A stretch of DNA of 64,000 nucleotides from Staphylococcus phage VB_SavM_JYL01. The stretch is from sequence record MH159197.1, one strand, 5' to 3'. This document shows, piece after piece, positions 4,982 through 34,500 of the stretch (position 1 is its first letter; every line of letters starts with the position of its first letter). The notes below the pieces were generated by a model, which had not been told where the DNA came from, searched no databases, and saw nothing but the letters and a program-made list of their open reading frames with translations. A program made the translations under genes and the position numbers.

Positions 4982-5623
4982 TTATTTTAAATTAATAACT
5001 AACTCAATAAACGATTTAATAGTTTTATTTTTACCTTCATCAATATCTGAAAAGAAATTAATTAAACTATCATCTTCATCAAATAAATCTTCAACATCAT
5101 CAAATTTATTTAATATATCTGTAACACTATAACCTTCTTCTGATATATACTCATGCAAGTCTTCTCCATCCTCTGACAGAGTTGCTTCTATCTTACCATT
5201 CTTACTTTCAATTAAATACAAAGTATTTAATACTTTAATAGAATCTACTACTACACTGTAATTACTAATAGTAGGATACTCTGTATAAAGTATTTCCACA
5301 TTAGTATTCATATAACTATCAATTACAGAATTAACTGTGTCCCTTTTTAATTCAGATACATTATGTTTTCGTATAGTAGGGAATTCTTCGTCATATTCTA
5401 CTAATTCTTTTCTATCTGTATTCAATAATTTGTCTAAAGAAGATAATAATACTATTTTATATTGATTGTCCGGTAGACTATCTGTAATTTCCATAATGGT
5501 TAAAAAAGTATCTTCACCTAAAACTTTATTTATATCTTGTAATTCAAATGAATCTACCATTTCAATAGTATCATCTATATCATCTGTAGTCATTAAAAAA
5601 TTAACTAAATTATTATTCTCCAT
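4982..5623 (-). CDS. hypothetical acidic protein (213 aa)
   Basis: ORF track. Confidence 0.55.
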   Translation of the reverse strand: MENNNLVNFLMTTDDIDDTIEMVDSFELQDINKVLGEDTFLTIMEITDSLPDNQYKIVLLSSLDKLLNTDRKELVEYDEEFPTIRKHNVSELKRDTVNSVIDSYMNTNVEILYTEYPTISNYSVVVDSIKVLNTLYLIESKNGKIEATLSEDGEDLHEYISEEGYSVTDILNKFDDVEDLFDEDDSLINFFSDIDEGKNKTIKSFIELVINLK

Positions 5624-5843
5624 CGTCTTCCTCCAATTCTTTAAATAGCTCTTTACCTGGAGTATTTAACGCCTTCTCTAACCTCATTAAATTAGCACTT
5701 CTTGGTTTCTTTTTACCATACTCCCAATAAGATATAAGAGAATAATGGACTCCTATCTCAGAAGCTAGGCTTCTTAATGTATGTCCTTTTTCTACTCTAA
5801 TTTTTTGAAGATTTAGAGGTTTACTTTCCTTTTTTTCATCCAT
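5613..5843 (-). CDS. XRE-family helix-turn-helix transcriptional regulator
   Basis: LRSLASEIGVHYSLISYWEYGKKKPRSANLMRLEKAL is a canonical HTH_3 pattern. Confidence 0.75.
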   Translation of the reverse strand: MDEKKESKPLNLQKIRVEKGHTLRSLASEIGVHYSLISYWEYGKKKPRSANLMRLEKALNTPGKELFKELEEDDGE

Positions 5844-5845
5844 AA

Positions 5846-6073
5846 CTATTTCTCCTCTACTTTTAAAAATTTAAAATCCTCAGATGCTTTTGCATTTTTT
5901 AGTATATACTCTTGTGATTTATTTCTTGCCTCTGCTTTACTTTTAGCATATAACTCTATATGAAATACATGAGGTTTTTTTAAAGATGGTGATTCATATC
6001 TCCAATAAACTTTAAAAAGTAGTGTTTCTTTTTTTAGAACATTAATTCTAAACCATCTTTTAAATTTATTCAT
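5846..6073 (-). CDS. small basic protein (75 aa)
   Basis: ORF track; lies directly downstream of the consensus promoter at 6106-6134. Confidence 0.5.
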   Translation of the reverse strand: MNKFKRWFRINVLKKETLLFKVYWRYESPSLKKPHVFHIELYAKSKAEARNKSQEYILKNAKASEDFKFLKVEEK

Positions 6074-6105
6074 TCATTATCCTCCTTTATTTATTTGTTA
6101 AACTA

Positions 6106-6134
6106 ATTATAGCATAGTTAACTTATGAAGTCAA
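6106..6134 (-). promoter_or_regulatory. sigma-A consensus promoter (TTGACT-17-TATAAT)
   Basis: Minus strand: TTGACT (6129-6134), 17-nt spacer, TATAAT (6106-6111). Confidence 0.6.
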
Positions 6135-6144
6135 CTATAATATA

Positions 6145-6174
6145 CAAAAAAGACTAAGAAATTAATCTTAGTCT
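6145..6174 (-). terminator. intrinsic terminator of 6182..6874
   Basis: Hairpin agactaaga/tcttagtct followed by a U6 run on the minus strand. Confidence 0.6.
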
Positions 6175-6181
6175 TAATATA

Positions 6182-6874
6182 TTAATAACTATTATGTGCG
6201 TTGTGGTATGCAAGAGCTCCTGATGTTGAACCGTAACGGTCAATCATATATTGTTTTGCACCTTTAGTTTGTTCTGCTATAGAACCCCCACTCCATGATT
6301 TACCTAATCCTTGGAATAGTCCTTGAGCTCCTGATGATGCATTAACGGCATTAGGATTCAGTGTAGATTCACGCATAGCAATTTCAATCATTGCCTCGTC
6401 TCCACCTGCTTGTCTAATTTGTTCTGCTACAGAACCTCCTGTAGAACTAGTTGATTGTGTAGGTTGTTTAGTTTCTTTTTGAACTGGTGCTGATGTTGGT
6501 TGTACTTCTTTTTTAGTATCTTGTTTATTTTGAGTATCAAATTGCGCTTGTTGTTGGTCTACTTTTTGTTCAGGTGTTTGTTCTTCTCCTGCTAATCTAG
6601 ATACTGTATTATCTACTTGAGTTGAACCTGAGTGATATTCGTATCCAAAATTACCATTATAATTATAGAAATGATAAGTAAATTCTCCGTCACTGAATGA
6701 GAAATCATAGTTACCTTCTTGAATTGGTTTTGTATTTACTTCTACTGAATTTGATTTAGCTTGTTCTGCTAACTTATTATAATCAATTTCGTCTGCACTA
6801 GCTTCGTTTGTAGCAATACCTCCAAAAGTAATAGCCGTACCTAATGCTAATGTTGCAAAAATTGTTTTCTTCAT
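6182..6874 (-). CDS. secreted IsaA/SceD-like lytic transglycosylase (Sec signal peptide, then a lysozyme-like domain)
   Basis: N-terminus MKKTIFATLALGTAITFGGIATNEASA is a typical signal peptide. The C-terminus AMRESTLNPNAVNASSGAQGLFQ aligns with the IsaA transglycosylase core (ARESNG..N.SGA.GLFQ). Confidence 0.7.
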   Translation of the reverse strand: MKKTIFATLALGTAITFGGIATNEASADEIDYNKLAEQAKSNSVEVNTKPIQEGNYDFSFSDGEFTYHFYNYNGNFGYEYHSGSTQVDNTVSRLAGEEQTPEQKVDQQQAQFDTQNKQDTKKEVQPTSAPVQKETKQPTQSTSSTGGSVAEQIRQAGGDEAMIEIAMRESTLNPNAVNASSGAQGLFQGLGKSWSGGSIAEQTKGAKQYMIDRYGSTSGALAYHNAHNSY

Positions 6875-9773: not shown

Positions 9774-10276
9774 TACTTAACTTCCTCCTCTGCAAATACT
9801 TTACCGTGTTCCTCGGTATCTTCTTCATCTTGAGAAGGTGCTGAACCGCCATCAATTTCATCTTCAATAGCAGGTACTTCATCACTATCATCTGTATCAG
9901 GTTCTGCATTGTTTTCATAGTTGTCTAATTCGAAAGTGCTAGCTGTGTTTGCATTTGCTTGCCATTGAACAAATTCATTAGGGTCTTTACTATCACGAGG
10001 TTTTATATAATCTGTTTGAACAATATCACTATCTTTAAGACCTTTAGTATTATTATCAACAATAATACCTAAACCTGCTAATAATGTTAGTATAGAACCT
10101 ATGATATTTACACCTTGCTCAATTTGAGCTGAGTAGTCTAAACCAAAAGCACCTGTAATTTGATTAGCAAATACTGCTACTGCTGATATAATTGCTACCC
10201 AAAATGTTTTACTCTTAGTTCTTGTGCTAAAGTTTATTCCTCCAACAACTTTAGGTTGTTTAGTTTCATTAGCCAT
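9773..10276 (-). CDS. holin
   Basis: 167 aa with 2 TM segments and a charged C-terminal tail. Sits immediately upstream of, and overlaps, the endolysin. Confidence 0.8.
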
Positions 10277-10277
10277 T

Positions 10278-10334
10278 AAAAAACCGACCTTTCTATTATA
10301 TTTATTTCTAACAATAATATAACAGTAGGTCGGT
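10278..10334 (-). terminator. large-loop hairpin plus U-run ending the 10361..10546 transcript
   Basis: accgacct (10283-10290) pairs with aggtcggt (10327-10334) and is followed by a U-run. The 36-nt loop carries the late motif. Confidence 0.4.
10315..10324 (-). promoter_or_regulatory. late-promoter motif TGTTATATTA upstream of holin-endolysin
   Basis: Exact 10-mer on the minus strand, ~40 nt upstream of the holin ATG. The same 10-mer recurs before the capsid, tape-measure and fiber operons. Confidence 0.55.
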
Positions 10335-10360
10335 CATGTTTATCTATATTAATTTAACAC

Positions 10361-10546
10361 TTACTCATTAATTTGATTTAGTTTTTTGATAACTTCAGAC
10401 ATTTGTTTGTTATCTAAATCTTCTAATTTAGTTTCAGGTAATAACTCTAATTTATCCCAAACTTCTTCTTTATTAGATACTTTATTATTAATAATTGCCT
10501 TACCAACTAAACTTTCCGTATAATATAATTGCTTTGCTGATGCCAT
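10361..10546 (-). CDS. hypothetical protein (61 aa)
   Basis: ORF track. Confidence 0.45.
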   Translation of the reverse strand: MASAKQLYYTESLVGKAIINNKVSNKEEVWDKLELLPETKLEDLDNKQMSEVIKKLNQINE

Positions 10547-10705
10547 TTGTATCTCTCCTTTTAAATATGTAAAGTATATAGCTAGTATCGTATCCTAGGA
10601 ACAAACACTTGCGCTATATACTCAATGAAACTCTACCCTCATTCGAGGACACAGCAAACCGATTCGTCAACCGCACATGTGAATTCTCAAGTTTCATTTA
10701 TGTAA

Positions 10706-10777
10706 CACACCCTCTTTGATTTGCACAAAGACTAAGGGTTTTGGAGACCCTTGTACTACTAATTATACTAAGGGTGT
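10706..10777 (-). tRNA. tRNA-Trp (anticodon CCA)
   Basis: Hand-folded cloverleaf. Acceptor ACACCCT/AGGGTGT, anticodon stem AGGGT/ACCCT, loop CTCCAAA. D- and T-loops are slightly non-canonical. Confidence 0.6.
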
Positions 10778-10783
10778 TTATTA

Positions 10784-10856
10784 TGGTTTCTATTGGATTT
10801 GAACCAATGACACCTAGAGCTTCAATCTAGTGCTCTACCATCTGAGCTAAGAAACC
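10784..10856 (-). tRNA. tRNA-Phe (anticodon GAA)
   Basis: Acceptor GGTTTCT/AGAAACC, D-stem GCTC/GAGC, anticodon stem CTAGA/TCTAG, loop TTGAAGC, T-arm ATTGG-TTCAAAT-CCAAT. Confidence 0.8.
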
Positions 10857-10862
10857 TTGTAA

Positions 10863-10936
10863 CGACTCATACGAGACTCGAACTCGTACTCTCTGCCGTG
10901 ACAGGGCAGTGTGTTAACCAGTTACACCAATGAGCC
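10863..10936 (-). tRNA. tRNA-Asp (anticodon GTC)
   Basis: Acceptor GGCTCAT/ATGAGTC, anticodon stem CTGCC/GGCAG, loop CTGTCAC, T-arm ACGAG-TTCGAGT-CTCGT. Confidence 0.8.
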
Positions 10937-11067
10937 AAAATAAATGCTATACCCTAACCTTACCTTAATGTATAGCAGGTTTTCATATAAGCTCGAAGCA
11001 ACGATTATTACCACTCATAACAACTATATATTAAGTGAAAGGAGGTGAAATGAACAAAACGTGGTAA

Positions 11068-11096
11068 TTGGTACTTATATAGGAAGTATGTATAAT
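11068..11096 (+). promoter_or_regulatory. plus-strand promoter-like element (TTGGTA-17-TATAAT) at the 5' edge of a long hairpin
   Basis: TTGGTA, then cttatataggaagtatg (17 nt), then TATAAT (11090-11095). Confidence 0.4.
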
Positions 11097-11184
11097 CTAC
11101 AAGGAGTAAGTTATTGGTTCATAAAGGAGTGTGAACAATAAATACATGAAAGAGTGAAAGTCTACTCCTTGTAGATTCTTTTTT
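11094..11184 (+). ncRNA. candidate small structured RNA / large-loop terminator
   Basis: Perfect 15-bp inverted repeat: aatctacaaggagta (11094-11108) pairs with tactccttgtagatt (11163-11177). The 54-nt loop has its own gttca/tgaac stem, and a T6 run follows (11179-11184). Confidence 0.4.
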
Positions 11185-11189
11185 AATTA

Positions 11190-11850
11190 TCAATCAAAGG
11201 AGGAAACTGATAATTGTTAATAATAAACTATAAAGAGGAAAATATTTATAGTCACATTCTGATATAATGCAACTAAATATCCAAGCATAACCCGTCTCAC
11301 GAGGAACCTACCTATAAGACCTGTTATTAAGTGAATCACTACGATTGACTCTATTAAGGAGCTACCTTAAGTCCATCTCACGCAATTTAAAAGGGACTTA
11401 CAAACCGTATAACGATAGTAAGTTTATTAAATAATGTGATATTAACATATTAGTTAATAACTTTCACATGGTCGAAGAAAAGTAAATTTATTTGATTTCC
11501 AAATTATTTTTATCAAATATAGCTTCTTTTGAACCTGTAGATTTATGCTACTCATACTAATAACCTCTATTATCTAACACATTTCTGTGCTCCAACTACA
11601 GTTAGTCGTTACAGCGTATCTTTCTAGGATTCCGCTAAGACCCTAGAAAGAAATTAAACCCTAGCCGTTATCATACTCTACAGACCTTATAAGTAAGTAC
11701 CAAGTATACCAATCGTATTTAACAATACTAATGACGACCCATCCTACCGATATATTTCCGATAGGTTTTGATTCGTTTGATTATCTTGTACCTTATGACT
11801 ACCAAATCATTATTCAGTCACTATGCTCAGATATTTAGTTGTATTATTAT
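11190..11850 (-). ncRNA. ORF-free ~0.66-kb transcribed leader downstream of two consensus promoters; candidate structured ncRNA or pseudo-tRNA region
   Basis: No ORF longer than ~20 codons on either strand despite non-extreme composition. It has many local hairpins, for example tctttctagg/cctagaaaga at ~11621-11655. It is continuous with the tRNA cluster on the same strand. Confidence 0.35.
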
Positions 11851-11856
11851 ATATTA

Positions 11857-11885
11857 ATTATAACATAATTTTTAGTACTTGTCAA
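11857..11885 (-). promoter_or_regulatory. perfect sigma-A consensus promoter (TTGACA-17-TATAAT), leftward
   Basis: Minus strand: TTGACA (11880-11885), 17-nt spacer, TATAAT (11857-11862). Confidence 0.65.
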
Positions 11886-12033
11886 GTTAATTTTAAAAAA
11901 AATTATAGAAGTAAGATAAAATTCTTACTTCCAATTAAAATTATAAGGATGATACACATTGTTATTGTTTAAACTGGAAAACAATGTAAGAAAAAACAGT
12001 GATGTGTAAGGTATTTGTTTTATTGTTAATTAC

Positions 12034-12062
12034 ATTATAGCATATACTGATACCTTTGTCAA
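12034..12062 (-). promoter_or_regulatory. perfect sigma-A consensus promoter (TTGACA-17-TATAAT), leftward
   Basis: Minus strand: TTGACA (12057-12062), 17-nt spacer, TATAAT (12034-12039). Shares the ttgtcaagttaattt context with the 11857 promoter. Confidence 0.65.
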
Positions 12063-12088
12063 GTTAATTTAATACTTTTTTTAAAATA

Positions 12089-12307
12089 TTAGTTATCTTT
12101 TGTTAGTTCTTCCTGAATAGCATCCCATCTTCTTTCTGCTTCACTACGATTATCTTCTATATGTTTTGTAGTTTTACAACATTTGATACAGTATATATCT
12201 TTGATATGACCTTCTTCTCTTTTATTTGCTCTTTTTCTTGGTACTTTGAATACATTACCACATTCTTTACATATTAAACTTGAGTAAAACATTTTTTGTC
12301 TTTTCAT
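12089..12307 (-). CDS. small zinc-ribbon protein (CxxC...CxxCC), 72 aa
   Basis: LICKECGNVFKV ... YCIKCCKTTKH. Confidence 0.55.
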   Translation of the reverse strand: MKRQKMFYSSLICKECGNVFKVPRKRANKREEGHIKDIYCIKCCKTTKHIEDNRSEAERRWDAIQEELTKDN

Positions 12308-31367: not shown

Positions 31368-31439
31368 TCTAGGTGATGGAGTACCTGGATTAGGTACTCC
31401 TATTAATATAATTTGAATACTTTAGGAGAGTGAATACAG

Positions 31440-31868
31440 ATGGCATCAGAAGCTAAACAAACCGTCCATACTGGTAATACCGTCCTACTTATGATTAAAG
31501 GTAAACCGGTAGGAAGAGCACAATCAGCATCAGGTCAACGTGAATACGGTACAACTGGTGTATACGAAATCGGTTCTATCATGCCTCAAGAACACGTATA
31601 CTTACGTTATGAAGGTACAATTACAGTAGAACGTTTACGTATGAAAAAAGAAAACTTTGCAGATTTAGGATATGCTTCACTTGGTGAAGAAATTCTTAAG
31701 AAAGATATCATTGATATTTTAGTTGTAGATAACTTAACGAAACAAGTTATTATCTCATATCATGGTTGCTCTGCAAATAACTACAATGAAACTTGGCAGA
31801 CAAATGAAATTGTAACAGAAGAAATCGAGTTTAGTTACTTAACAGCAAGTGACAAAGCACGTACTTAA
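31440..31868 (+). CDS. tail tube protein
   Basis: 142 aa, immediately after the sheath. Confidence 0.75.
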   Translation: MASEAKQTVHTGNTVLLMIKGKPVGRAQSASGQREYGTTGVYEIGSIMPQEHVYLRYEGTITVERLRMKKENFADLGYASLGEEILKKDIIDILVVDNLTKQVIISYHGCSANNYNETWQTNEIVTEEIEFSYLTASDKART

Positions 31869-31874
31869 TATACT

Positions 31875-31903
31875 AGACCAACTAAAAAGTTGGTCTTTTT
31901 TTA
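31875..31903 (+). terminator. intrinsic terminator after the tube gene
   Basis: Hairpin agaccaac/gttggtct followed by a T7 run. Confidence 0.7.
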
Positions 31904-31932
31904 TTGACATTATAAAATTTATATGATATTAT
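31904..31932 (+). promoter_or_regulatory. sigma-A-type promoter TTGACA-17-TATTAT
   Basis: Seen in sequence, directly abutting the terminator. Confidence 0.5.
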
Positions 31933-31957
31933 AATAAACAGGTTAGGAGTAATGAGT

Positions 31958-32116
31958 ATGAATAATAGACAAGCTAAAATAAAAGGTTATAATCAATTTC
32001 ATTATTATGATTTTCCAACAACTAAAGGTAAGTTTAAAGATATAATGAAAAGAAAGTCTAGAACAGAACTTAAAAAAGATTTACAAAAAGAGAGGAAAGA
32101 TTATCTTGACAAATAA
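31958..32116 (+). CDS. basic mini-protein A (52 aa, MNNRQAKIKGYNQFHYYDF...KDYLDK)
   Basis: AGGAG SD 8 nt upstream. Not in the ORF track (<60 aa). Confidence 0.4.
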   Translation: MNNRQAKIKGYNQFHYYDFPTTKGKFKDIMKRKSRTELKKDLQKERKDYLDK

Positions 32117-32135
32117 GAGAAAAACAATAGGAAAA

Positions 32136-32246
32136 ATGAGTAATACGAGAGCAACATGGAATATCAACCCTGTAACTAAGGTTAAAAAAGATAAAACAAA
32201 ATATTCTAGAAAAAATAAGCATAAAGGTCTTGACAACTATAATTAA
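32136..32246 (+). CDS. basic mini-protein B (36 aa, MSNTRATWNINPVTKVKKDKTKYSRKNKHKGLDNYN)
   Basis: Weak RBS. Lys-rich like mini-protein A. Its 3' end carries the next TTGACA box. Confidence 0.3.
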   Translation: MSNTRATWNINPVTKVKKDKTKYSRKNKHKGLDNYN

Positions 32247-32258
32247 CTAAGGTATATT
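32230..32258 (+). promoter_or_regulatory. sigma-A-type promoter TTGACA-17-TATATT
   Basis: Seen in sequence. Confidence 0.45.
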
Positions 32259-32288
32259 ATTAGTATAACAAAAAAGGAGATGAATTAC

Positions 32289-32741
32289 ATGAGTACATTT
32301 TGGTCAAAAAGAAGAACAACAGGTAAGGACAGACAAGTAAAGAAACATTATACTCAAATGTCTTTACAAGAAAAGAAGAAGTGTGTTAATCTATTACAAG
32401 ATACAATTAATACGCATAAGTATTTAGAACTATCAAGTCATTGTAAAACTAAACTTAAAAATAAAATTAATTTTAGTAATCTAGTAAGATTTATTTTTAA
32501 GGATAGAAATGCACCATTTAATATTATTGAGTATAATATTACAGATTTTCATGGTAAAGAACAAAGAAGAATAATTTTTAAAAGCCCTACTATTGTAACT
32601 ATAGAAGGAGTAAGTAGTTATCAGTACTTAGTTATTAACTTAGAAGATGGTACAATAATAACTACATACTATAATGGTATTACAGATACACATAAAACAT
32701 TAGATTTAAAATATTATAATAAAAACTTGACAATTAAATAA
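32289..32741 (+). CDS. hypothetical basic protein (150 aa; start at the second ATG)
   Basis: AAGGAG SD is 9 nt before the ATG at 32289. The track ATG at 32280 has no usable spacing. Confidence 0.55.
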   Translation: MSTFWSKRRTTGKDRQVKKHYTQMSLQEKKKCVNLLQDTINTHKYLELSSHCKTKLKNKINFSNLVRFIFKDRNAPFNIIEYNITDFHGKEQRRIIFKSPTIVTIEGVSSYQYLVINLEDGTIITTYYNGITDTHKTLDLKYYNKNLTIK

Positions 32742-32753
32742 GGAGGAATTATA

Positions 32754-32948
32754 ATGGGATTAATATTTGTAAATAGTTATTTTATAATATCAAACATATT
32801 AATTATTGTGTTTAGTAAATTAAATAGTAAAAAAAAGGTAACAGAAAAAACTCTAGCTACAAGTAATCTTTTATTAACAATATCATATATTCAACTATTA
32901 GCATTTTTAATCATTAATGGTATTTACTACTCATTAAAATATATGTAA
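32754..32948 (+). CDS. two-TM hydrophobic peptide (64 aa) with Lys-rich loop (holin-like or type-I-toxin-like architecture)
   Basis: Strong AAGGAGG SD. TM1 spans res 3-21, then KLNSKKKVTEK, then TM2 spans res 36-56. Confidence 0.55.
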   Translation: MGLIFVNSYFIISNILIIVFSKLNSKKKVTEKTLATSNLLLTISYIQLLAFLIINGIYYSLKYM

Positions 32949-32956
32949 AAAAAGTA

Positions 32957-32985
32957 TTGACAGAATAAAAATAATAAACTATAAT
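32957..32985 (+). promoter_or_regulatory. perfect sigma-A consensus promoter TTGACA-17-TATAAT
   Basis: Seen in sequence. Confidence 0.6.
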
Positions 32986-33018
32986 ACAGATATAACAAAT
33001 TAAAGGAGAAGATATAAA

Positions 33019-33330
33019 ATGTCACAAGATAAATTAAGAGCAATTTACACAGAAATGAAAGTAGAATTACACAAATTTCCTAAAGAGGTAGATGTAACAA
33101 GTAAATCAACTGCAATTGCAATCAATCAGATTCTAGATAAATTTAAAACATTAACTGAACAAGCAGGGAAAATTACGAGAAAATATCTAGAAGGTCAAGA
33201 AATATTAACTATTGATTATGAGTATTATGATTCATTACAAGAATACTATATCTACCTACTTAGAAACAGTGAAAAGATTGAACAAAGTTTACAAGAAATC
33301 ACTAAGCGTACAGGTGAATATGTAAAGTAA
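33019..33330 (+). CDS. hypothetical helical protein (103 aa)
   Basis: AAAGGAGAAG SD. Confidence 0.55.
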   Translation: MSQDKLRAIYTEMKVELHKFPKEVDVTSKSTAIAINQILDKFKTLTEQAGKITRKYLEGQEILTIDYEYYDSLQEYYIYLLRNSEKIEQSLQEITKRTGEYVK

Positions 33331-33391
33331 TTTTGATTTAAAAACAAAATATGATATACTATGTTTAAAGTAGTAAGCCTACACTAGTCCG

Positions 33392-33401
33392 TGTTATATT
33401 A
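33392..33401 (+). promoter_or_regulatory. late-promoter motif TGTTATATTA for the tail-chaperone/tape-measure operon, inside the loop of an 8-bp inverted repeat (33375-33427)
   Basis: Exact 10-mer. Flanking repeat arms are aagcctac and gtaggctt. Confidence 0.55.
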
Positions 33402-33461
33402 ATATTGAATCGGATAAGCGTAGGCTTTATTAATATTTAAAAAAGGAAGGTATATCATATT

Positions 33462-33920
33462 ATGGCAGAAGAAATTAAAAAGGAACAAGATGTACAAGAA
33501 ACAACTAAAGAAGATAAAAAAGATGTTAGTAAAATGACACCGGAAGAAATAGATAAATTAAAATATCAAGATAAGCAAGAAAAAGAACAAGTAATTAACA
33601 AAGTTATTAAAGGTGTTAATGATACTTGGGAAAAAGAATATAACTTTGAAGAATTAGATTTAAGATTTAAAGTTAAAATTAAATTACCTAATGCACGAGA
33701 ACAAGGTAACATATTTGCGTTACGTTCTGCTTACTTAGGTGGTATGGATATGTATCAAACAGACCAAGTAATTAGAGCATACCAAATGTTAGCTACATTA
33801 CAAGAAGTAGGTATTGAAGTTCCTAAGGAATTCCAAGACCCTGATGATATCTATAACTTATATCCTTTAACTGTTATGTATGAAGATTGGTTAGGATTCT
33901 TAAACTCCTTTCGTTACTAA
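33462..33920 (+). CDS. tail assembly chaperone candidate (152 aa)
   Basis: First of two ORFs directly upstream of the tape-measure gene. Confidence 0.5.
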   Translation: MAEEIKKEQDVQETTKEDKKDVSKMTPEEIDKLKYQDKQEKEQVINKVIKGVNDTWEKEYNFEELDLRFKVKIKLPNAREQGNIFALRSAYLGGMDMYQTDQVIRAYQMLATLQEVGIEVPKEFQDPDDIYNLYPLTVMYEDWLGFLNSFRY

Positions 33921-33954
33921 TAGTATAGAAACATTAGATAAAGATATAGAACGA

Positions 33955-34500
33955 TTGGGTGGTATGGAATCAATTGTTAAACAACCTTTATCTAGAAATC
34001 TATGGGCTATTATGAAAGAGTTTAATGTTTTGCCTACTGAGCAAAGATTTAAGGATTTAGACGATTATCAAATAGAGTTTATTATTGGTAATATGAATAG
34101 AGATGTTTATGAACATAATAAACAACTTAAACAAGCTCAAAAAGGTGGAAAATTCGATAGTCAATTTGAAGATGACGATAGTAGTTGGTGGAATGAATCT
34201 CATGAAGACTTTGACCCGGTACCTGATTTCTTAGATGCCGATGACTTAGCACAACAGATGGAAGCTAAATTATCTGATAGAGATAAGGAAGAAAGAGCTA
34301 AGAGAAATGATGCAGAGTTAAATGATGAAACAGAAGGACTCACTACACAACATCTTGCTATGATGGAATACATTAGAAGAAAACAAGAAGAATTAGATGA
34401 TGAAGTAGGAAATGGTAAAACTAGTGAAGATGATGCTACTATAACACAAGAGAGCGTTAATAAAGCACTAGAAGACCTAGATGATGACTGGTATATGTAA
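33955..34500 (+). CDS. tail assembly chaperone candidate (181 aa, acidic C-terminus)
   Basis: Second of two ORFs directly upstream of the tape-measure gene. Confidence 0.5.
   Translation: MGGMESIVKQPLSRNLWAIMKEFNVLPTEQRFKDLDDYQIEFIIGNMNRDVYEHNKQLKQAQKGGKFDSQFEDDDSSWWNESHEDFDPVPDFLDADDLAQQMEAKLSDRDKEERAKRNDAELNDETEGLTTQHLAMMEYIRRKQEELDDEVGNGKTSEDDATITQESVNKALEDLDDDWYM

What the first reader, a model, noticed from the sequence alone, without database searches (positions are those of the whole stretch)
31870..33450. Island of host-promoter-driven small genes wedged between two late tail transcription units
The tail-tube gene ends in a clean hairpin plus U7 terminator (31875-31903). The chaperone/tape-measure operon begins at its own TGTTATATTA late motif (33392-33401). 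Between them lie at least five small genes with sigma-A-type promoters: 31904-31932, 32230-32258, and 32957-32985 (perfect TTGACA-17-TATAAT). So a set of apparently early or constitutively expressed accessory genes is embedded inside the late morphogenesis block, in moron fashion. None of the products matches a known fold that I can recognise. Candidate roles are host takeover, superinfection exclusion, anti-defence or a toxin-like function.
Basis: partly seen in the sequence, partly recalled or inferred. Interest (0 to 1): 0.75.

Follow-up and report, generated by a model that had tools for sequence, protein, structure and literature searches.

The report
Known early gene island in Kayvirus tail genes

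Summary
The window is a Kayvirus, 100% identical here to phages OPT-SA02 and Baghdad. The terminator, three sigma-A promoters and late TGTTATATTA box match t105, p106, p107, p109 and pL110/t109 of vB_SauM-515A1 (Kornienko 2020).

In 515A1 these genes peak at 5 min and fall 1.9-7.3x by 30 min, while the flanking tail genes rise 29-42x. Phage K data agree. The architecture is therefore already known.

New here:
- The island is syntenic in four Twortvirinae genera but absent from Listeria A511 and a Bacillus relative. It is an old, subfamily-specific insertion at an existing transcription-unit boundary, not a recent moron.
- It has the lowest GC in the window (23.7%).
- Its 150-aa gene and the mbpX membrane gene form a divergent allelic cassette (57%/55% aa identity to phage K; flanks 96-100%; dS ~0.9).

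An ArfA-like idea for the 46-aa peptide was rejected.

The parts
31440..31868 (+). Tail tube gene (tmpA). Last gene of the upstream late unit; included as context.
   Evidence: phrog_985. 99.5% nt identity to Staph1N TmpA. Late in 515A1, +42x at 30 min.
31875..31902 (+). Intrinsic terminator, equivalent to t105 of 515A1. 9-bp stem, AAAA loop, T6 tail.
   Evidence: Sequence identical to the phage K gp165 terminator and to t105. Single copy in the window.
31904..31932 (+). Early sigma-A promoter, equivalent to p106 (TTGACA-17-TATTAT, TG-extended).
   Evidence: Same hexamers and position as p106, which starts TU21, and as phage K promoter 44.
31958..32116 (+). 52-aa basic protein (54 aa if translated from 31952). 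Variable gene.
   Evidence: phrog_8192. Present in only 90 phage records; absent from K, G1 and 515A1; present in Twort and SEP1.
32106..32246 (+). 46-aa lysine-rich peptide with a TTG start.
   Evidence: phrog_2701. DUF7230 is sub-threshold: 24.9 bits vs cutoff 27, in 7 of 10 members. Residues upstream of Met11 are conserved as far as Bacillus phages, so the long form is the real one. Found in 333 records.
32230..32258 (+). Early sigma-A promoter, equivalent to p107 (TTGACA-17-TATATT). Overlaps the 3' end of the 46-aa ORF.
   Evidence: Flanks nearly identical to p107 of 515A1.
32289..32741 (+). 150-aa protein of the large phage family phrog_1905. Possibly a divergent DUF4258/RelE-ParE-like fold.
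32360..32950 (+). Divergent allelic cassette: most of the 150-aa gene plus mbpX.
   Evidence: 50-73% nt identity to Staph1N, inside flanks at 95-100%. dS 0.95/0.91 and dN/dS 0.32/0.31, against dS 0.02-0.40 and dN/dS 0.00-0.06 in the flanks.
32727..32755 (+). Perfect 12/12 sigma-70-like site overlapping the stop of the 150-aa gene and the mbpX start. Function unverified.
   Evidence: Conserved in Staph1N and 812 despite divergent surroundings. Not listed as a promoter in either RNA-seq study.
32754..32948 (+). MbpX, a 64-aa protein with two hydrophobic helices.
   Evidence: phrog_4320. Annotated MbpX, putative membrane protein. Early in 515A1 and phage K. 55% aa identity to the K type.
32957..32985 (+). 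Early sigma-A promoter, equivalent to p109 (perfect TTGACA-17-TATAAT).
   Evidence: Equivalent to p109 and to phage K promoter 45. A counterpart lies before the homologous gene in Twort, SEP1 and Romulus.
33019..33330 (+). 103-aa all-helical protein. The most abundant island transcript. Labelled 'virion component' on weak evidence.
   Evidence: phrog_2754. About 10,000-11,700 CPM at 5 min, about 5,300-6,300 at 30 min. 'Middle' class in phage K. Detected in the fRuSau02 78-protein LC-MS/MS list but not in the ISP virion MS. No PDB sequence match. Generic four-helix bundle.
33376..33426 (+). Terminator hairpin ending the early unit, equivalent to t109. Its loop holds the late promoter.
   Evidence: RNA fold -25.8 kcal/mol, z = -3.5. 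Listed as t109. About a 40-fold drop in 5-min reads between ORF109 and ORF110 in 515A1. SEP1 has the same nesting with a different stem sequence.
33392..33401 (+). Late promoter -10 box TGTTATATTA, equivalent to pL110. Start of the chaperone/tape-measure unit.
   Evidence: The 30-nt context is identical to pL110 and to phage K promoter 46. The same box precedes the chaperone gene in Twort, SEP1, Romulus and Listeria A511.
33462..33920 (+). Tail assembly chaperone. First gene of the downstream late unit; included as context.
   Evidence: phrog_1038. Late in 515A1, +29x.

Best explanation
The interval is this phage's copy of a published Kayvirus early transcription unit, TU21 of vB_SauM-515A1 (TU44 plus TU45 of phage K).

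Transcription mechanism:
1. Shown in close relatives, inferred for this phage: late transcripts of the sheath/tube unit stop at the hairpin at 31875-31902.
2. Shown in relatives: straight after infection the host sigma-A RNA polymerase starts at the consensus promoters at 31904, 32230 and 32957 and transcribes five small genes.
3. Shown in relatives: these early transcripts end at the hairpin at 33376-33426.
4. Inferred: the late -10 box (33392-33401) lies in the loop of that hairpin. Late transcripts therefore contain only its 3' half, cannot form the terminator, and read on into the chaperone/tape-measure genes.

Origin (shown by comparison): the island is an old insertion specific to Twortvirinae, placed at a pre-existing boundary between the tube terminator and the chaperone's late promoter.

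Gene functions (inferred): the products are non-structural, early-acting, host-directed factors.
- The 150-aa protein is most likely a divergent RelE/ParE-superfamily (DUF4258-like) protein that binds or cleaves a nucleic-acid target early in infection. I put the fold at about 0.5 and RNase activity at about 0.2.
- With the membrane protein MbpX it forms a cassette that is exchanged as alternative alleles between lineages.
- The roles of the 46-aa, 52-aa and 103-aa products remain open.
For: Identity of the unit:
- 100% identity to Kayvirus genomes.
- Promoter, terminator and late-box sequences match p106, p107, p109, pL110, t105 and t109.

Expression:
- RNA-seq fold changes at 30 vs 5 min are -7.3, -5.5, -4.2 and -1.9 for ORF106-109, against +42 and +29 for the flanking genes.
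- TU21 is named as one of five abundantly transcribed early units.
- Phage K classifies the genes as early or middle between late units.
- The phage K late-switch block stops at the tube gene.

Comparative evidence:
- Synteny in Twort, SEP1 and Romulus.
- Absent in Listeria A511 and Bacillus YungSlug.
- The late box lies before the chaperone gene in all of them, including A511.
- The island is the lowest-GC 1.5 kb of the window, 23.7% against a median of 31%.

150-aa protein:
- Confident model.
- DUF4258 is the most recurrent weak Pfam hit (8 of 136 members) and aligns over the full model, 1-70 of 71, in the expected register.
- DUF4258 and MqsR are both listed as RelE/ParE BECR-fold families.
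- 16 nearly invariant, mostly polar residues.
- Homologues in other phages sit among early or replication genes.

Cassette.
Against: - No expression data exist for this exact phage or for any phage carrying the 52-aa ORF.
- The published data are coverage steps, not mapped 5' ends.
- Foldseek gives no PDB match (best E 0.43).
- Profile searches of the PDB do not find RelE-like proteins.
- Cystatin-like folds score as well as most RelE hits.
- The window protein itself has no Pfam hit.
- No antitoxin-like neighbour is evident.
- The Stab21 homologue g107 scored 0.77 in an E. coli toxicity screen where <0.5 meant toxic.
- The 103-aa protein was detected in one virion preparation, so not every island product is clearly non-structural.
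Confidence: 0.87

Rival explanations
1. The island is a recently acquired, dispensable moron: horizontally gained cargo with its own promoter and terminator that gives a strain-specific advantage.
For: - It is an autonomous unit with its own promoters and terminator.
- It has the lowest GC in the window.
- It is absent from non-staphylococcal Herelleviridae.
- Its content varies: the 52-aa ORF occurs in 90 of about 330 records, a nuclease gene occupies the same slot in 812, RODI, Twort and SEP1, and there are alternative 150-aa/mbpX alleles.
Against: - The 46-aa, 150-aa and 103-aa genes are present in about 317-333 records, in the same order, in four genera.
- dN/dS is 0.02-0.32, so every gene is under purifying selection.
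- The acquisition is therefore ancient and the core behaves like a fixed part of the genome.
Confidence: 0.15
2. The 150-aa/mbpX cassette, and possibly the whole island, serves superinfection exclusion or anti-defence. The allelic divergence would then reflect an arms race with host defences or with competing phages.
For: - Early expression.
- A small two-helix membrane protein.
- Two adjacent genes diverge together inside near-identical flanks, with 5-15x higher dN/dS.
- SieB is the second most recurrent weak Pfam hit in the 150-aa family (7 of 136 members).
Against: - dN/dS of about 0.3 is below 1, and dS of about 0.9 points to allele replacement by recombination rather than rapid positive selection.
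- MbpX is not annotated in Twort or Romulus.
- No PADLOC or NCBIfam match.
- I could not inspect the SieB alignments.
- No experiment bears on this.
Confidence: 0.25
3. At least the 103-aa gene is a tail-assembly or virion factor that must be made before the late genes, so the island is partly morphogenetic.
For: - It lies directly upstream of the chaperone gene.
- It has its own perfect promoter and the highest, most persistent transcript level.
- It is 'middle' class in phage K.
- It was detected by LC-MS/MS in purified fRuSau02 particles and is annotated 'virion component'.
- It is conserved across the subfamily.
Against: - The fRuSau02 list of 78 proteins includes reductases, ligase and sigma factors, and its authors warn of carry-over.
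- It is absent from the ISP virion proteome.
- It has no sequence match to any solved structure. The phi812 virion models should be among these, although I did not confirm that they are held in this PDB copy.
- It is absent from Listeria and Bacillus relatives that build the same kind of tail.
Confidence: 0.2
4. The promoter-like sites are chance matches in AT-rich DNA, and the ORFs are late genes read through from the tube operon.
For: The region is 76% A+T. The weak-threshold scan finds many matches, 49 against 35 expected.
Against: - Three independent RNA-seq studies of near-identical phages show early or middle expression, with coverage steps at these promoters.
- The sites are conserved across genera.
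- Five sites scoring at least 11/12 within 1.1 kb, against about 0.2 expected.
Confidence: 0.03

Closest known systems
TU21 of Kayvirus vB_SauM-515A1 (Kornienko et al. 2020, PMC7698491), equal to TU44/TU45 of phage K (Finstrlova et al. 2022, PMC9241854)
   Same: Same terminator, the same three early promoters, the same late promoter nested in a terminator, and the same order of the 46-aa, ~150-aa, mbpX and 103-aa genes. The flanking genes are 96-100% identical at the protein level.
   Different: - This phage carries an extra 52-aa ORF between p106 and the 46-aa gene.
- It has a different allele of the 150-aa/mbpX pair (57%/55% aa identity).
- The papers list the unit but discuss neither its position, its conservation nor its gene functions.
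Morons of lambdoid and other phages (autonomous promoter-gene-terminator units between conserved genes). This description is from my own knowledge of Hendrix and colleagues' work.
   Same: Own promoters and terminator. Inserted between two genes that are adjacent in related phages (A511, Bacillus phages). Deviant base composition. Not needed for the flanking function.
   Different: - A lytic phage, so there is no prophage expression.
- Multi-gene.
- The core is fixed across a whole subfamily rather than sporadic.
RelE/ParE-superfamily BECR-fold toxins, in particular DUF4258 (PF14076) and MqsR (Gerdes 2025, PMC11980606)
   Different: - All scores are below family thresholds.
- There is an extra ~45-residue N-terminal segment with its own invariant Q-x-K-K-H motif.
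- No antitoxin gene.
- Encoded by lytic phages.
- A homologue was not clearly toxic in E. coli.
T4 RegB, an early phage endoribonuclease reported to have a RelE/YoeB-like fold. This is from my own knowledge and was not tested here.
   Same: In concept only: a small RelE-like protein without an antitoxin, made early by a lytic phage.

Membership tests
Kayvirus early transcription unit TU21 (515A1) / TU44-45 (phage K) | Upstream terminator t105 and early promoters p106, p107 and p109 at the same positions | tested here: met
   The hexamers, the spacer length and most of the flanking bases are the same.
Kayvirus early transcription unit TU21 (515A1) / TU44-45 (phage K) | Downstream boundary: terminator t109 with late promoter pL110 | tested here: met
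   The 30-nt pL110 context is identical, and the t109 hairpin folds with z = -3.5.
Kayvirus early transcription unit TU21 (515A1) / TU44-45 (phage K) | Orthologous gene content and order | tested here: met
   The 46-aa, 150-aa, mbpX and 103-aa genes are all present in order, and one extra ORF is added.
Kayvirus early transcription unit TU21 (515A1) / TU44-45 (phage K) | Early transcription in this particular phage | not testable with these tools
   Expression data exist only for 515A1 and phage K.
Moron | Autonomous unit with its own promoter and terminator | tested here: met
Moron | Lies between genes that are adjacent in related phages | tested here: inconclusive
   True against Listeria A511 and Bacillus YungSlug. 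Not true within Twortvirinae, where the core is always present.
Moron | Base composition different from its surroundings | tested here: met
   23.7% GC, the minimum of the window, against 35-37% for the sheath, tube and tape-measure genes.
Moron | Sporadic distribution and dispensability | tested here: not met
   The core genes occur in about 317-333 records. Dispensability was not tested.
RelE/ParE superfamily, DUF4258 (PF14076), for the 150-aa protein | Pfam model match above the gathering score | tested here: not met
   The window protein has no hit. Members reach at most 16 bits in the ten I inspected, against a cutoff of 25. The best member E-value is 6.8e-4.
RelE/ParE superfamily, DUF4258 (PF14076), for the 150-aa protein | RelE-like fold | tested here: inconclusive
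RelE/ParE superfamily, DUF4258 (PF14076), for the 150-aa protein | Adjacent cognate antitoxin gene | tested here: not met
   The neighbours are a very basic 46-aa peptide and a membrane protein. Neither co-occurs with the family outside Twortvirinae.
RelE/ParE superfamily, DUF4258 (PF14076), for the 150-aa protein | Growth inhibition on expression, or RNase activity | tested here: inconclusive
   From the literature only: Stab21 g107 scored 0.77 in E. coli, where the toxic threshold was <0.5. There are no S. aureus or biochemical data.
ArfA-type ribosome rescue factor, for the 46-aa peptide | Profile-level similarity to ArfA | tested here: not met
A family profile does not find ArfA in the PDB even at E <= 10.
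DUF7230 (PF23876), for the 46-aa peptide | Pfam match above the gathering score | tested here: not met
   24.9 bits against a cutoff of 27. Seven of 10 family members give sub-threshold hits.
Virion structural protein, for the 103-aa product | Reproducible presence in purified virions or in virion structures | tested here: inconclusive
   Present in the fRuSau02 LC-MS/MS list, which also holds non-structural proteins. Absent from the ISP list. No match to any PDB chain.
Virion structural protein, for the 103-aa product | Late expression with the other structural genes | tested here: not met
   Highest at 5 min in 515A1, and 'middle' class in phage K.

The most novel reading that the evidence does not exclude
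The 150-aa protein represents a large, undescribed branch of the RelE/ParE (DUF4258-like) superfamily, found in phages of Gram-positive bacteria and lacking an antitoxin (phrog_1905; 445 cluster representatives). It would act as an early RNA-targeting effector, conceptually like T4 RegB. In Kayviruses it would form, with the membrane protein MbpX, an exchangeable allelic cassette that sets host- or competitor-specific outcomes. Separately, nesting the late promoter inside the terminator loop would be a general device that lets one hairpin stop early transcripts while staying invisible to late ones.
Probability: 0.2. Interest if true: 0.55.

Novelty: already known. Interest (0 to 1): 0.25.

Why it matters
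Kayviruses are the main therapeutic phages against S. aureus, so their early genes of unknown function matter for both safety and engineering. This island is a compact, strongly expressed early unit, naturally insulated from its neighbours and bounded by known signals. That makes it an obvious payload or engineering site and a short list of candidate host-takeover genes. The transcription map is already published, so the value added here is limited to four points:
- The island's evolutionary status: ancient and specific to Twortvirinae.
- The variable 150-aa/mbpX cassette.
- A testable fold hypothesis for a large uncharacterised phage protein family.
- A correction of weak labels: 'virion structural protein' on the 103-aa product and 'RNA polymerase beta subunit' on TmpB.

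Tried and rejected
- ArfA-like ribosome-rescue idea for the 46-aa peptide. The pairwise match was weak and the family profile did not find ArfA, so I rejected it.
- Pfam, NCBIfam and PADLOC scans of all five products gave nothing above threshold.
- PDB sequence searches with the single proteins and with profiles A1, A2 and A3 gave nothing meaningful.
- Foldseek against the PDB for the 150-aa model gave no match. The afdb50 library was unavailable.
- Word-indexed homologue searches returned only close Kayvirus relatives.
- The long family members carry no Pfam domain in their N-terminal extensions.
- Co-occurrence of the island genes outside Twortvirinae: none found.
- Rfam found no RNA family in the island.
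- I could not inspect the SieB alignments behind the 7 weak hits.
Full report
IDENTITY AND OBSERVATION

The window is a Kayvirus (Herelleviridae, Twortvirinae). Positions 31400-33950 are 100% identical to Staphylococcus phages OPT-SA02 and Baghdad, and about 89% identical to the phage K/G1 group.

- A hairpin terminator at 31875-31896 with a T6 tail.
- Sigma-70-type promoters at 31904-31932, 32230-32258 and 32957-32985.
- The late box TGTTATATTA at 33392-33401.
- Five ORFs, each with a Shine-Dalgarno sequence.

I refined the gene starts from ribosome-binding-site spacing, homologue lengths and conservation upstream of internal methionines:
- 31958, giving a 52-aa product
- 32106, a TTG start, giving a 46-aa product
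- 32289, giving a 150-aa product

The window has 25 sites scoring at least 11/12 over both strands. Five of them lie in this 1.1-kb stretch, against about 0.2 expected (the arithmetic is mine).

IT IS A PUBLISHED TRANSCRIPTION UNIT

Kornienko et al. 2020 (PMC7698491) mapped the transcriptome of Kayvirus vB_SauM-515A1.
- Their Table S2 lists early promoters p106 (which starts TU21), p107 and p109, and late promoter pL110 (which starts TU22). The hexamers, spacers and flanks are those of the window. The 30 nt around pL110 are identical.
- Their Table S3 lists terminators t105 and t109 with the same sequences.
- Their Table S1 shows that ORFs 106-109 peak at 5 min and then fall, by -7.3x, -5.5x, -4.2x and -1.9x at 30 min. 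The tube gene rises 42x and the chaperone gene 29x.
- The text names TU21 among five abundantly transcribed early units but does not discuss it further.

Finstrlova et al. 2022 (PMC9241854) report the same for phage K. gp163 and gp162 are early, and gp164 and gp161 are middle, expressed from two sigma-70-type promoters. They sit between late TU43 (sheath and tube) and late TU46 (chaperones).

A third phage K study places the late switch on the block gp175-gp165, which stops at the tube gene.

Promoters at these positions are also annotated in the GenBank record of phage 812.

EVOLUTIONARY STATUS

- The island is syntenic in Kayvirus, Twortvirus, Sepunavirus and Silviavirus.
- In Listeria phage A511 and Bacillus phage YungSlug the tube gene is followed directly by the chaperone gene.
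- The late box lies just upstream of the chaperone gene in all of them, including A511.

So the island was inserted at an existing boundary between two transcription units in the ancestor of the staphylococcal subfamily, and it has been kept since.

By tblastn, the 46-aa, 150-aa and 103-aa genes occur in 333, 317 and 323 phage records, mbpX in 238, and the 52-aa ORF in only 90. In 812, RODI, Twort and SEP1 a nuclease gene annotated as intron-encoded sits in the slot right after the tube terminator.

The island is the lowest-GC 1.5 kb of the window: 23.7% against a median of 31%, and against 35-37% for the sheath, tube and tape-measure genes.

'Moron-like' is thus a fair description of the layout, but the core is ancient and fixed, not recent cargo.

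A DIVERGENT CASSETTE INSIDE THE ISLAND

Against Staph1N (K type), protein identities are as follows:

| Protein | aa identity |
|---|---|
| tube | 100% |
| 46-aa | 96% |
| 103-aa | 99% |
| chaperone | 99% |
| 150-aa | 57% |
| MbpX | 55% |

Nucleotide identity drops to 50-73% between about 32360 and 32950, with sharp edges.

In the two divergent genes, synonymous divergence is 0.95 and 0.91, against 0.02-0.40 in the flanks. Their dN/dS is 0.32 and 0.31, against 0.00-0.06. This fits replacement by an old alternative allele through recombination, together with faster but still constrained protein evolution.

The two genes vary together: 22-23 records are at least 99% identical to the window for both. 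JD007 combines the 52-aa ORF with the K-type allele, so the island itself is mosaic.

THE 150-AA PROTEIN

No Pfam, NCBIfam or PADLOC family matches it, and neither does any solved structure by sequence.

A deep profile search found 445 cluster representatives, 218 of them at E <= 1e-10. All 136 sampled members belong to phrog_1905, which has no assigned function.

Homologues occur in Enterococcus, Lactobacillus, Bacillus and other phages, where they lie among early or replication genes and not in tail modules.

Sixteen positions are invariant or nearly invariant across the 136 members: Q16, K18, K19, H20, Q23, E28, H51, E81, N83, R94, V115, T125, N129, D133, H135 and Y143.

The AlphaFold model is confident (pLDDT 85.7, pTM 0.82). 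Its order of elements is strand, four helices, then a four-stranded antiparallel sheet.

Evidence for a RelE/ParE-like fold:
- I had guessed DUF4258 from the sequence motifs before running any test. In a member-by-member Pfam scan it was the most recurrent weak hit (8 of 136 members, best E 6.8e-4), while almost all of the other 167 families were hit once or twice.
- In two members the match covers the whole DUF4258 model, from the S-x-H motif to the T-A-Y-x-N strand.
- Gerdes 2025 (PMC11980606) lists both DUF4258 and MqsR as BECR-fold families of the RelE/ParE superfamily, with DUF4258 function unknown.

Evidence against:
- Foldseek finds nothing.
- Profile searches of the PDB find nothing relevant.
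- No antitoxin-like partner is evident.
- In the Stab21 screen the homologue g107 scored 0.77, where <0.5 marked toxicity. I identified g107 from its cloning-junction sequences.

I rate the fold assignment at about 0.5 and an RNase function at about 0.2.

THE OTHER PRODUCTS

- 46-aa peptide. It has a conserved K-T-I-G-K...T-W-x-I-x-P-x-T-R-V-K-K-D-K-T-K-Y-x-R-K core that extends to Bacillus phages. It gives sub-threshold DUF7230 hits. A resemblance to the ArfA tail failed at the profile level.
- MbpX. It has two hydrophobic helices, visible directly in the sequence, and it is annotated as a membrane protein. Its Stab21 homologue was non-toxic, with a ratio of 4.13.
- 103-aa protein. It is predicted to be a four-helix bundle, but only one of the five models is confident and the fold matches are generic. 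Its 'virion' label traces to a 78-protein LC-MS/MS list that includes clearly non-structural proteins. It is absent from the ISP virion proteome and matches no PDB chain.
- The island genes do not travel together outside Twortvirinae.

VERDICT

The main interpretation is supported by published RNA-seq on near-identical phages, so the finding is already known. The 'moron/accessory' framing holds only in part. The gene functions remain open, with one testable hypothesis for the largest gene.

Noticed in passing
window 33376-33426 (hairpin) with 33392-33401 (late -10 box); also the minus-strand late box at window 10324; L007 (SEP1) around 4071: The late promoter -10 box sits in the loop of the terminator that ends the early unit, so late transcripts would carry only the 3' half of the hairpin. 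The same nesting occurs at a second late promoter in the window. It also occurs in Sepunavirus SEP1, with an unrelated stem sequence (AACCTATACTAT/ATAGTATAGGTT). The sequences appear in Table S3 of the 515A1 paper (t75, t109, t157), but the arrangement is not discussed there.
   Followed up: partly
window 32727-32755: A perfect TTGACA-17-TATAAT site. Its -35 is formed by the Leu-Thr codons at the end of the 150-aa gene and its -10 overlaps the mbpX ATG. It is conserved in Staph1N and 812 although the surrounding DNA is only about 65% identical. Neither RNA-seq study lists it as a promoter. A transcript starting there would lack the mbpX start codon.
   Followed up: partly
window 33462-33920 and 33955-34500: The chaperone and TmpB match the N- and C-terminal halves of one 350-aa PHROG profile, phrog_4988 (tail assembly chaperone). 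This suggests a G/GT-like chaperone pair. The label 'RNA polymerase beta subunit' carried by TmpB homologues (phrog_1316; the Baghdad, Twort, SEP1 and A511 records) looks like a propagated misannotation.
   Followed up: no
L001 (812), L006 (Twort), L007 (SEP1), L011 (RODI): the slot right after the tail-tube terminator: These relatives carry a nuclease gene of about 1-1.4 kb, annotated as intron-encoded, at the head of the island. In 812 the tail-tube gene is annotated as joined from three pieces. The window has no such gene, so this boundary seems to be a landing site for homing elements.
   Followed up: no
window 11300-12300: This is the only other stretch of the window with GC as low as the island (24-25%). 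It carries two perfect sigma-70 promoters on the minus strand (11885 and 12062) and lies next to three tRNA genes at 10706-10936.
   Followed up: no
proteins P0106, P0111, P0135, P0157, P0162, P0186 (distant members of the 150-aa family): These longer members (230-345 aa) have a low-complexity linker. Several also have an N-terminal 'Y-H-I-N...C...C...H-F' motif that resembles a small zinc-binding module. They have no Pfam match, and their composition suggests Actinobacteria or their phages.
   Followed up: partly
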